Positions 10,289 to 10,866 of a DNA stretch of 64,000 nt are shown one piece after another. Each line of letters starts with the position of its first letter. Position 1 is the stretch's first letter. The stretch comes from Escherichia coli (lineage in GTDB: Bacteria > Pseudomonadota > Gammaproteobacteria > Enterobacterales > Enterobacteriaceae), in the NCBI RefSeq assembly GCF_024223415.1, contig NZ_CP100500.1, one strand, 5' to 3'. The translations under genes were made by a program, and so were the position numbers. The notes beneath the pieces are model-generated. The model made no database searches. It was not told the origin of the DNA and saw only the letters and a program-made list of their open reading frames with translations.

Positions 10289-10866
10289 ATGAGTGAAAAA
10301 AGCATTGTTCAGGAAGCGCGGGATATTCAGCTGGCAATGGAATTGATCACCCTGGCGCTCGTTTGCAGATGCTGGAAAGCGAAACACAGTTAAGTCGCGG
10401 ACGCCTGATAAAACTTTATAAAGAACTGCGCGGAAGCCCACCGCCGAAAGGCATGCTGCCATTCTCAACCGACTGGTTTATGACCTGGGAACAAAACGTT
10501 CATGCTTCGATGTTCTGTAATGCATGGCAGTTTTTACTGAAAACCGGTTTGTGTAATGGCGTCGATGCGGTGATCAAAGCCTACCGTTTATACCTTGAAC
10601 AGTGCCCACAAGCAGAAGAAGGACCACTGCTGGCATTAACTCGTGCCTGGACATTGGTGCGGTTTGTTGAAAGTGGATTACTGCAACTTTCCAGCTGCAA
10701 CTGCTGCGGCGGCAATTTTATTACCCACGCTCACCAGCCTGTTGGCAGCTTTGCCTGCAGCTTATGTCAACCGCCATCCCGGGCAGTAAAAAGACGTAAA
10801 CTTTCCCAGAATCCTGCCGATATTATCCCACAACTGCTGGATGAACAGAGAGTACAGGCTGTTTAA
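10289..10866 (+). pseudogene. flhC: flhC disrupted by a 1-bp deletion (frameshift after codon 23, stop at 10391-10393)
   Basis: The ATG at 10289 gives [22 protein letters not shown] and then goes out of frame, reading [12 protein letters not shown] and a TAA stop. The remainder of FlhC (..[30 protein letters not shown]... to QRVQAV) is intact in the +1 frame at 10363..10866. A GGG run in the expected ACC CTG GGC GCT CGT reads GG in the window. Confidence 0.7.

What the first reader, a model, noticed from the sequence alone, without database searches (positions are those of the whole stretch)
10340..10400. Frameshift in flhC (single-G deletion) predicts loss of flagellar master regulator despite an otherwise intact motility/chemotaxis regulon
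From the ATG at 10289 the frame reads [22 protein letters not shown]. It then gives [15 protein letters not shown] (stop 10391-10393) instead of [12 protein letters not shown]... The remaining 167 FlhC codons are intact in the +1 frame (10363..10866). The lesion is at CTGG-CGC (10352-10358), where functional flhC has CTGGGCGC. FlhD4C2 is required for class II flagellar promoters. The strain is therefore predicted to be non-flagellated and non-motile although flhD, motAB, cheAW, tar, tap, cheRBYZ and flhBAE are all intact. That pattern suggests a recent loss-of-function event, as seen in some non-motile pathogenic lineages. A homopolymer sequencing error is the alternative.
Basis: partly seen in the sequence, partly recalled or inferred. 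Interest (0 to 1): 0.6.

Follow-up and report, generated by a model that had tools for sequence, protein, structure and literature searches.

The report
Broken flagellar master regulator gene flhC
This E. coli carries a one-base deletion that breaks flhC, the switch gene for making flagella, so it is probably non-motile; this is a real-looking but ordinary and well-known way for E. coli to lose motility.

Summary
flhC starts at 10289, and one G is missing from the GGG run (GG now at 10354-10355). The frame changes after Leu22 and stops at TAA 10391-10393, giving 34 aa. Residues 26-192 remain open in another frame up to 10866. All 14 neighbouring flagellar and chemotaxis genes are full length.

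The nearest relatives are short-read assemblies of the same clone, 99.98-99.995% identical over about 30 kb. They have an intact 192-aa FlhC. The missing G is the only indel against them, so the lesion is private to this genome and very recent.

An error-prone assembly is unlikely. None of the 170 homopolymer runs of 5 nt or more in 35 kb differs in length from relatives. A single consensus error cannot be excluded without reads.

The identical deletion is fixed in an unrelated lineage, STEC O177:H25/H-. It appears there in 5 complete genomes and about 200 contigs, RefSeq annotates it as "frameshifted", and the strains were reported non-motile. Many other independent lesions hit the same 5' part of flhC in public data.

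Verdict: a most likely genuine, recent loss-of-function mutation of a textbook kind. Novelty and interest are low.

The parts
9936..10286 (+). flhD, intact (116 aa), first gene of the flhDC master operon
   Evidence: Full-length ORF. The exact protein is a common allele seen on more than 1000 contigs.
10289..10393 (+). Truncated flhC reading frame: 22 native residues, 12 out-of-frame residues, then TAA
   Evidence: The exact 34-aa peptide is known from 203 public contigs.
10354..10355 (+). Site of the lesion: GG where intact flhC has GGG (ORF nt 66-68). It overlaps a Dcm site, CCTGG.
   Evidence: This is the only indel against ECONIH4 over 25 kb and against sister clone L032 over 20.9 kb.
10363..10866 (+). 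Out-of-frame remainder of flhC (residues 26-192), undamaged, now without its own start signals
   Evidence: Its sequence is identical to intact FlhC. No Shine-Dalgarno precedes ATG 10369 or ATG 10453.
10993..15296 (+). motA, motB, cheA and cheW, all intact; expression depends on FlhDC through FliA
   Evidence: MotB is a rare allele (8 contigs) that marks the clone.
15441..21739 (+). tar, tap, cheR, cheB, cheY and cheZ, all intact
   Evidence: CheZ is a rare allele (20 contigs) that marks the clone.
21941..25552 (+). flhB, flhA and flhE, all intact; a class II operon that needs FlhD4C2
9186..9186 (.). Private G-to-C substitution in the uspC-flhD intergenic region. It is the only other change on this genome's own branch in about 30 kb.
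   Evidence: All 30 other loci examined have G. It lies 29 nt upstream of the uspC ATG and 750 nt upstream of the flhD ATG. Relevance to flhDC is unknown.

Best explanation
This is a genuine, very recent one-base deletion (GGG to GG at codons 22-23) in flhC, private to this isolate within its clone.

Shown: translation from the flhC start now ends after 34 residues. The product lacks residues 23-192, and so lacks almost the whole fold seen in the FlhD4C2 structure, including the four-cysteine cluster.

Inferred from the established flagellar hierarchy:
- Without FlhC no FlhD4C2 complex forms.
- Class II promoters (flhBAE, flg and fli operons, fliA) are not activated, so sigma-28 is not made.
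- Class III genes (motAB-cheAW, tar-tap-cheRBYZ, fliC) stay silent.
- The cell is therefore non-flagellated and non-motile even though these genes are intact.

The neighbouring genes are undamaged because too little time has passed for decay. Loss of flhDC function is a frequent, often selected event in E. coli. Whether it happened in the host or environment, or during laboratory keeping of the strain, cannot be told from sequence.
For: - Lesion and truncated frame.
- It is the only indel in 25 kb against ECONIH4. There are no indels in 13082-35160 against L010 and L015.
- Sister-clone assemblies L032, L042 and L044 are 99.98-99.995% identical. They have GGG and a 192-aa FlhC. L032 stands for 14 contigs.
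- The window's branch also carries a private substitution at 9186, so it is a distinct isolate with real private changes.
- All 170 homopolymer runs of 5 nt or more in 1-35160 have the same length as in relatives.
- The other motility proteins are full length, and all those looked up are alleles also found in other genomes.
- The same deletion is inherited in STEC O177:H25/H-, whose genomes were Illumina-polished or short-read. It is annotated 'frameshifted' there, and the strains were non-motile on isolation.
- Frameshift or nonsense lesions at FlhC codons 96, 103 and 136 already abolish motility and are complemented by flhDC (PMC5100188).
- flhDC loss is rapidly selected in the mouse gut and in chemostats. 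About half of natural isolates are reported non-motile or poorly motile (PMC3116916).
- No slippery heptamer and no convincing restart signal were found.
Against: - No reads are available, and the source genome and its sequencing technology could not be identified.
- PacBio-only assemblies are known to lose bases in G/C-rich stretches (PMC6729007). This site, CCCTGGGCG, is such a stretch.
- A lesion private to one assembly is also what an error would look like.
- The O177 phenotype is confounded by a cheA nonsense mutation in the same lineage.
- The fli and flg regions, including fliC and fliA, are outside the window.
Confidence: 0.72

Rival explanations
1. Sequencing or assembly artefact: the isolate really has GGG and an intact flhC, and one G was dropped in the consensus.
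For: - The deletion is absent from all clone-mates.
- The site is a short G run in a G/C-rich context, the class of error described for PacBio-only assemblies (PMC6729007).
- The source assembly is not among RefSeq complete genomes, so its quality is unknown.
- An NCTC long-read assembly fetched here (L022) shows how bad such errors can be: 17 gap openings in 12.5 kb.
Against: - It is the only indel in about 35 kb of core sequence against three independent close relatives. None of the 170 runs of 5 nt or more is affected.
- All prophage proteins looked up are exact matches to common public proteins.
- A random single error in the 36 kb of core sequence would hit the 579-bp flhC only about 1.6% of the time. 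Real loss-of-function mutations concentrate in flhDC.
- The same deletion is demonstrably real elsewhere.
Confidence: 0.22
2. Inherited, lineage-defining pseudogene: the window belongs to, or received its flhC by recombination from, the O177:H- type lineage that carries the same deletion.
For: The 81-bp sequence across the deletion is identical in five O177 genomes.
Against: - The window is about 1.25% diverged from O177 over 22 kb.
- It differs at SNPs flanking the lesion inside flhDC (10231, 10608, 10626, 10641).
- It has an intact cheA where O177 has a stop.
- Apart from the gap, the flhDC segment is identical to ECONIH4-type alleles, and the window's own clone-mates are intact.
Confidence: 0.02
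3. The gene still works. Either a ribosomal -1 frameshift or a restart at ATG 10369 (Met28) or ATG 10453 (Met56) yields enough functional FlhC, or the short G run acts as a reversible phase-variation switch.
For: - The downstream frame is completely undamaged.
- ATG 10369 lies 22 nt before the new stop, so termination-reinitiation is conceivable.
Against: - No X XXY YYZ slippery heptamer and no run of 4 nt or more lie between the lesion and the stop.
- No Shine-Dalgarno precedes the candidate restart codons.
- A run of 2-3 G is far too short for a contingency locus.
- In O177 the same allele has been followed by further decay (cheA and cheZ stops), as expected for a dead pathway.
- Relatives keep the intact frame, so the shift is not conserved.
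Confidence: 0.03

Closest known systems
flhC frameshift pseudogene of STEC O177:H25/H- (strains SMN013SH2, SMN152SH1, SMN197SH3, 2014C-3011, OkiPb01679)
   Same: The identical one-G deletion, the identical 34-aa product and the same operon context. RefSeq annotates it 'flagellar transcriptional regulator FlhC, frameshifted'. The strains were reported non-motile although they carry fliC-H25.
   Different: It is an independent event in a different genetic background (about 1.25% divergence, different linked SNPs). In O177 the lesion is old and fixed, with secondary stops in cheA and sometimes cheZ. Here it is private to one genome and nothing else has decayed.
12-bp in-frame deletion in flhC of sorbitol-fermenting E. 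coli O157:H- (Monday et al. 2004, J Bacteriol 186:2319, as cited in PMC6729007)
   Same: Loss of motility in a natural E. coli lineage through a small deletion in flhC, with the structural flagellar genes retained.
   Different: That lesion is in-frame and lies at another position. I could not read the primary paper, so details rest on the citing paper and on my own knowledge.
Spontaneous flhD/flhC mutants of E. coli K-12 from biofilms, mouse gut and chemostats
   Same: Point mutations, small deletions and IS insertions in flhC or flhD give non-motile cells that are complemented by flhDC. IS1 inserts recurrently 49 bp into flhC, close to this site (PMC5100188). flhDC loss is selected under nutrient limitation (PMC3116916).
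   Different: Those are laboratory or experimental-evolution events in K-12. The exact codon-23 deletion was not among those described.
Other natural flhC 5' lesions in public assemblies
   Same: All truncate FlhC before residue 28 and leave the 165-aa remainder intact, and most have intact neighbours. They include:
- Gln27 amber (L023, L024, L031)
- a one-base insertion (L025)
- single-base deletions at other positions (L026, L027, L030)
- an IS3-family insertion at codon 22 (L028)
   Different: The molecular events and the backgrounds differ.

Membership tests
flhC loss-of-function allele (frameshift pseudogene of the flagellar master regulator) | The sequence is flhC: orthologous and in the flhD-flhC-motA position. 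| tested here: met
   99.9% DNA identity to annotated flhDC in thousands of genomes. The restored protein is identical to PDB 2AVU chain E. Gene order is flhD-flhC-motA.
flhC loss-of-function allele (frameshift pseudogene of the flagellar master regulator) | The reading frame is disrupted relative to intact orthologues, with a premature stop. | tested here: met
   A one-base gap at GGG and a stop at 10391-10393 after 34 codons.
flhC loss-of-function allele (frameshift pseudogene of the flagellar master regulator) | Parts essential for function are lost. | tested here: met
   Residues 23-192 are lost, including Cys137/140/157/160. Truncations at codons 96, 103 and 136 are already non-motile.
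flhC loss-of-function allele (frameshift pseudogene of the flagellar master regulator) | A non-flagellated, non-motile phenotype that flhC in trans rescues. | not testable with these tools
   This needs a soft-agar assay, a flagellin blot and complementation.
O177:H- inherited flhC allele | Same deletion. | tested here: met
   The 81-bp sequence is identical in five genomes.
O177:H- inherited flhC allele | Same linked haplotype (flhC SNPs, cheA internal stop). | tested here: not met
   The window differs at 10231, 10608, 10626 and 10641. cheA is intact here. There are about 277 SNPs over 22 kb.
Homopolymer sequencing or assembly error | Many indels against near-identical relatives, concentrated in long runs. 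| tested here: not met
   One indel in about 35 kb, and 0 of 170 runs of 5 nt or more affected.
Homopolymer sequencing or assembly error | Reads disagree with the consensus at the site. | not testable with these tools
   No reads are available and the source assembly was not identified.
Programmed ribosomal frameshift or recoding site | A slippery sequence is present, and the shifted arrangement is conserved among relatives. | tested here: not met
   No slippery heptamer was found. All close relatives have a single uninterrupted ORF.
Phase-variable contingency locus | A long simple-sequence tract (typically 7 or more units) whose length varies within a lineage. | tested here: not met
   The tract is 3 G reduced to 2 G, and there is no run of 4 nt or more nearby.

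The most novel reading that the evidence does not exclude
The CCCTGGGCG stretch at flhC codons 21-24 may be a true mutational hotspot rather than only a site where selection makes lesions visible. It overlaps a Dcm methylation and very-short-patch repair site (CCTGG).

The same G has been lost in at least three backgrounds: this clone, O177, and a divergent lineage represented by P0002. The neighbouring C and T have also been lost independently. An IS3-family element sits at codon 22 in another genome.

If short-patch repair at the Dcm site promotes slippage here, flhC would carry a built-in, mildly elevated off-switch for motility.
Probability: 0.06. Interest if true: 0.5.

Novelty: new member of a known kind. 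Interest (0 to 1): 0.15.

Why it matters
For this strain, it predicts an H-negative (non-motile) phenotype although the motility and chemotaxis genes in the window are complete. That matters for serotyping, for interpreting colonisation or virulence assays, and for annotation: flhC should be flagged as a pseudogene, and the two fragments should not be called as genes.

More generally, it is one more example that motility in E. coli is switched off by breaking the master regulator first, with the structural genes decaying later. The window and the O177 lineage show the early and late stages of that path with the very same mutation. It does not open a new question.

Tried and rejected
1. Finding the source genome failed.
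- It is not among 5,426 complete RefSeq E. coli genomes. The best match is 99.5% over 25 kb and 96-99% in the prophage part.
- An exact 48-mer across the lesion is absent from the GTDB representative genomes and from the JGI metagenome contigs.
- Look-ups through FlhA, the prophage integrase, the 34-aa peptide and the 165-aa fragment returned only other backgrounds.
- The rare MotB and CheZ alleles did find the clone, but only members with intact flhC.

2. Shared ancestry or recombination with O177 was rejected on linked SNPs.

3. Recoding, restart and phase variation were rejected on sequence grounds.

4. A Shigella origin was considered because the source is missing from the E. coli collection. 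Clone-mates labelled E. coli at 99.98% identity argue against it, and a direct IS scan of the window was not run.

5. The primary paper on the O157:H- flhC deletion (PMC412172) is not held.

6. No paper was found that links O177 non-motility to flhC.

Full report
**1. Observation**

- flhC begins at ATG 10289, three bases after the flhD stop.
- Codons 1-22 encode [22 protein letters not shown]. Codon 23 is GCG instead of GGC, and the frame then runs [12 protein letters not shown] to TAA at 10391-10393.
- The sequence CTGGCGC occupies 10352-10358. Intact flhC has CTGGGCGC there.
- The rest of FlhC, residues 26-192, is open and unchanged in the other frame up to 10866.
- With the G restored, the protein is 100% identical over all 192 residues to the FlhC chain of the solved FlhD-FlhC complex, PDB 2AVU.
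- The fourteen neighbouring genes all have canonical length and no internal stop. These are flhD, motA, motB, cheA, cheW, tar, tap, cheR, cheB, cheY, cheZ, flhB, flhA and flhE.
- The flg and fli regions are not in the window, so 'otherwise intact regulon' holds only for this cluster.

**2. Relation to other genomes**

The window is E. coli chromosome, running from yecR/ftnB through araFGH, otsBA, uspC, flhDC ... flhBAE, argS, cutC, torYZ and cmoAB, followed by a lambdoid prophage.

No complete RefSeq E. coli genome is the source. The best match over 1-25000 is 99.5%. Against that best match, strain ECONIH4, there are 127 substitutions and exactly one indel, the missing G in flhC. Two further relatives, L010 and L015, show no indel at all across 13082-35160.

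Exact-sequence look-ups showed that most motility proteins of the window are very common alleles. MotB (8 contigs) and CheZ (20 contigs) are rare and co-occur, which marks the window's own clone. Fetching those contigs gave the decisive comparison.
- L032 is a short-read SRA assembly that stands for 14 near-identical contigs. It is 99.98% identical to window 1878-22803, with three substitutions and one gap. The gap is the flhC G, and L032 encodes a 192-aa FlhC.
- L042 and L044 are 99.99% identical over 11095-31739 and 11095-23600, with one substitution and no gap.
- I polarised the three substitutions with 30 other loci. Two of them (2110 and 12692) arose on the sister branch.
- Only 9186 G-to-C is private to the window.

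On the window's own branch, about 30 kb therefore carries one substitution and the flhC deletion. The lesion is private to this genome and very young. That explains why nothing else in the cluster has decayed.

**3. Real mutation or error?**

No reads are available and the sequencing technology is unknown, so this cannot be settled.

Against an error-prone assembly:
- There is one indel in about 35 kb of core sequence against three independent relatives.
- There are 170 homopolymer runs of 5 nt or more, including 50 runs of 6 nt or more. None differs in length from relatives.
- Every prophage protein looked up is an exact match to proteins seen on hundreds of contigs.
- For contrast, a long-read NCTC assembly fetched in passing (L022) has 17 gap openings in 12.5 kb.

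For an error:
- PacBio-only assemblies are reported to lose bases in G/C-rich stretches (PMC6729007), and CCCTGGGCG is such a stretch.
- A change seen in one assembly only is what an error looks like.

My weighting is an inference. A single random error within the 36 kb of core sequence would land in the 579-bp flhC about 1.6% of the time. Genuine loss-of-function mutations concentrate in flhDC, as section 4 shows. I therefore put a real mutation at about 0.7-0.75 and an artefact at about 0.2.

**4. The same lesion, and many like it, exist elsewhere**

Five complete genomes carry the identical 81-bp sequence with the deletion. All five are STEC O177:H25/H-: SMN013SH2, SMN152SH1, SMN197SH3, 2014C-3011 and OkiPb01679.
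- RefSeq annotates their flhC as 'frameshifted'. Their cheA, and in one genome cheZ, has an internal stop.
- The SMN genomes were Pilon-polished with Illumina reads, and the strains 'were nonmotile when isolated' (PMC5100188 is not the source here; this is PMC5814490).
- OkiPb01679 is typed O177:H25 (PMC12613899).
- The exact 34-aa peptide occurs on 203 contigs. The 24 longest all have the O177 context with a split cheA.

In that lineage the deletion is thus real, inherited and old. The window is not that lineage. It is about 1.25% diverged, it differs at SNPs inside flhDC on both sides of the lesion (10231, 10608, 10626, 10641), and its cheA is intact. The deletion arose independently.

Variant peptides and fetched loci reveal further independent events within a few bases:
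- loss of a C from the CCC run (P0004/L027, 19 contigs)
- loss of the T (P0003)
- loss of the same G in a divergent lineage (P0002)
- other single-base deletions (L026, L030)
- a one-base insertion (L025)
- a recurrent Gln27 amber codon (L023, L024, L031)
- an IS3-family element of about 1.31 kb with a CTG duplication at codon 22 (L028)

**5. Mechanism**

Shown: the product keeps 22 native residues. It lacks residues 23-192, including Cys137, 140, 157 and 160. These are the zinc ligands of FlhC in 2AVU according to my recollection of the structure paper.

Shown elsewhere by experiment: frameshift or nonsense lesions at FlhC codons 96, 103 and 136 give non-motile K-12, and flhDC complements them (PMC5100188).

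Inferred from the established three-tier flagellar hierarchy:
- No FlhC means no FlhD4C2.
- Class II transcription then fails, including flhBAE in this window and fliA.
- No sigma-28 is made, so class III transcription fails (motAB-cheAW, tar-tap-cheRBYZ, fliC).

The predicted phenotype is non-flagellated and non-motile.

Rescue is unlikely. There is no -1 slippery heptamer, and no run of 4 nt or more lies between the lesion and the stop. No Shine-Dalgarno precedes ATG 10369 (Met28) or ATG 10453 (Met56). In O177 the same allele has been followed by further decay of the pathway.

The O177 phenotype is not clean proof on its own, because cheA is also broken there.

**6. Why such mutations are common**

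flhDC loss is rapidly selected in the mouse gut and in nutrient-limited chemostats. About half of natural isolates are described as non-motile or poorly motile (PMC3116916). Non-motile flhD and flhC mutants accumulate in biofilms (PMC5100188). A 12-bp flhC deletion explains non-motility of sorbitol-fermenting O157:H- (Monday et al. 2004, as cited in PMC6729007). The finding is therefore one more instance of a textbook route to non-motility.

**7. Novelty and score**

The kind of event is well known. The identical allele is already present and annotated in public genomes. What is new is only its independent, very recent occurrence in another clone. I rate it 'new member of a known kind' with interest 0.15.

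The most novel reading not excluded is that the Dcm-site-containing CCCTGGGCG stretch is a genuine indel hotspot. With hundreds of thousands of genomes and strong selection for flhDC loss, recurrence at one short run is expected anyway. I give that reading about 6%.

**8. Limits**

- The source genome is unidentified and there are no reads.
- The phenotype was not tested.
- fli and flg are outside the window.
- The role of the private 9186 substitution is unknown.

Noticed in passing
window 9186: G-to-C substitution private to this genome; all 30 other loci examined have G. It lies 29 nt upstream of the uspC start codon and 750 nt upstream of flhD. With the flhC deletion it is the only change on this genome's own branch in about 30 kb, and both fall within 1.2 kb of each other.
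   Followed up: partly
window 10350-10358; loci L025-L028, L030; proteins P0002-P0007: A cluster of independent lesions sits around flhC codons 17-27 in public assemblies. They include loss of C, T or G in CCCTGGG, other single-base indels, and an IS3-family insertion of about 1.31 kb with a CTG duplication at codon 22 (L028, OZ038676.1). The GGG run overlaps one of only three Dcm sites (CCTGG) in flhC.
   Followed up: partly
L023, L024, L031 (flhC codon 27): The same Gln27 amber mutation (CAG to TAG) appears in several metagenome and isolate contigs, with 9 further similar places not shown. This may be another non-motile lineage or a recurrent C-to-T change.
   Followed up: no
L001, L002, L004-L007 (O177:H25/H-): In the O177 lineage cheA carries an internal stop (products of 578 and 73 aa), and in strain 2014C-3011 cheZ does too. 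This is secondary decay after loss of flhC. I found no paper connecting O177 non-motility to flhC.
   Followed up: partly
window 36672-64000: A lambdoid prophage sits next to a yecE-like DUF72 gene, with its integrase at 36672-37985 on the minus strand. It carries SPFH, KilA-N, repressor-like HTH, DnaB-type helicase, a porin-like ORF (50981-51988), lysozyme, terminase, portal and S49 protease genes, and it runs off the window end. Its proteins match those of a lineage whose longest replicon is 5,675,808 bp.
   Followed up: partly
window 52686-52839, 44775-44963: The prophage carries tRNA-Met (CAT) and tRNA-Lys (TTT) genes, a C4 antisense RNA and an isrK-like sRNA.
   Followed up: no
window 29385-29692, 15316-15393, 33628-33670: Expected chromosomal sRNAs are present: MicL within cutC, C0465 between cheW and tar, and ES036 downstream of torZ.
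   Followed up: no
L043 (GCA_044679685.1): A genome sharing the rare CheZ allele has no called tap gene between tar and cheR and lacks the yecT (LprI) gene. Its flhDC-tar part is only 98.2% identical to the window, a sign of mosaic recombination in this region.
   Followed up: no
L022 (NCTC assembly UGCU01000001.1) and L029: These assemblies show many single-base gaps against the window (17 and 6 gap openings in 12.5 kb) and several split genes (flhD-flhC, cheA, tar, araG). They look like long-read consensus errors rather than biology.
   Followed up: no
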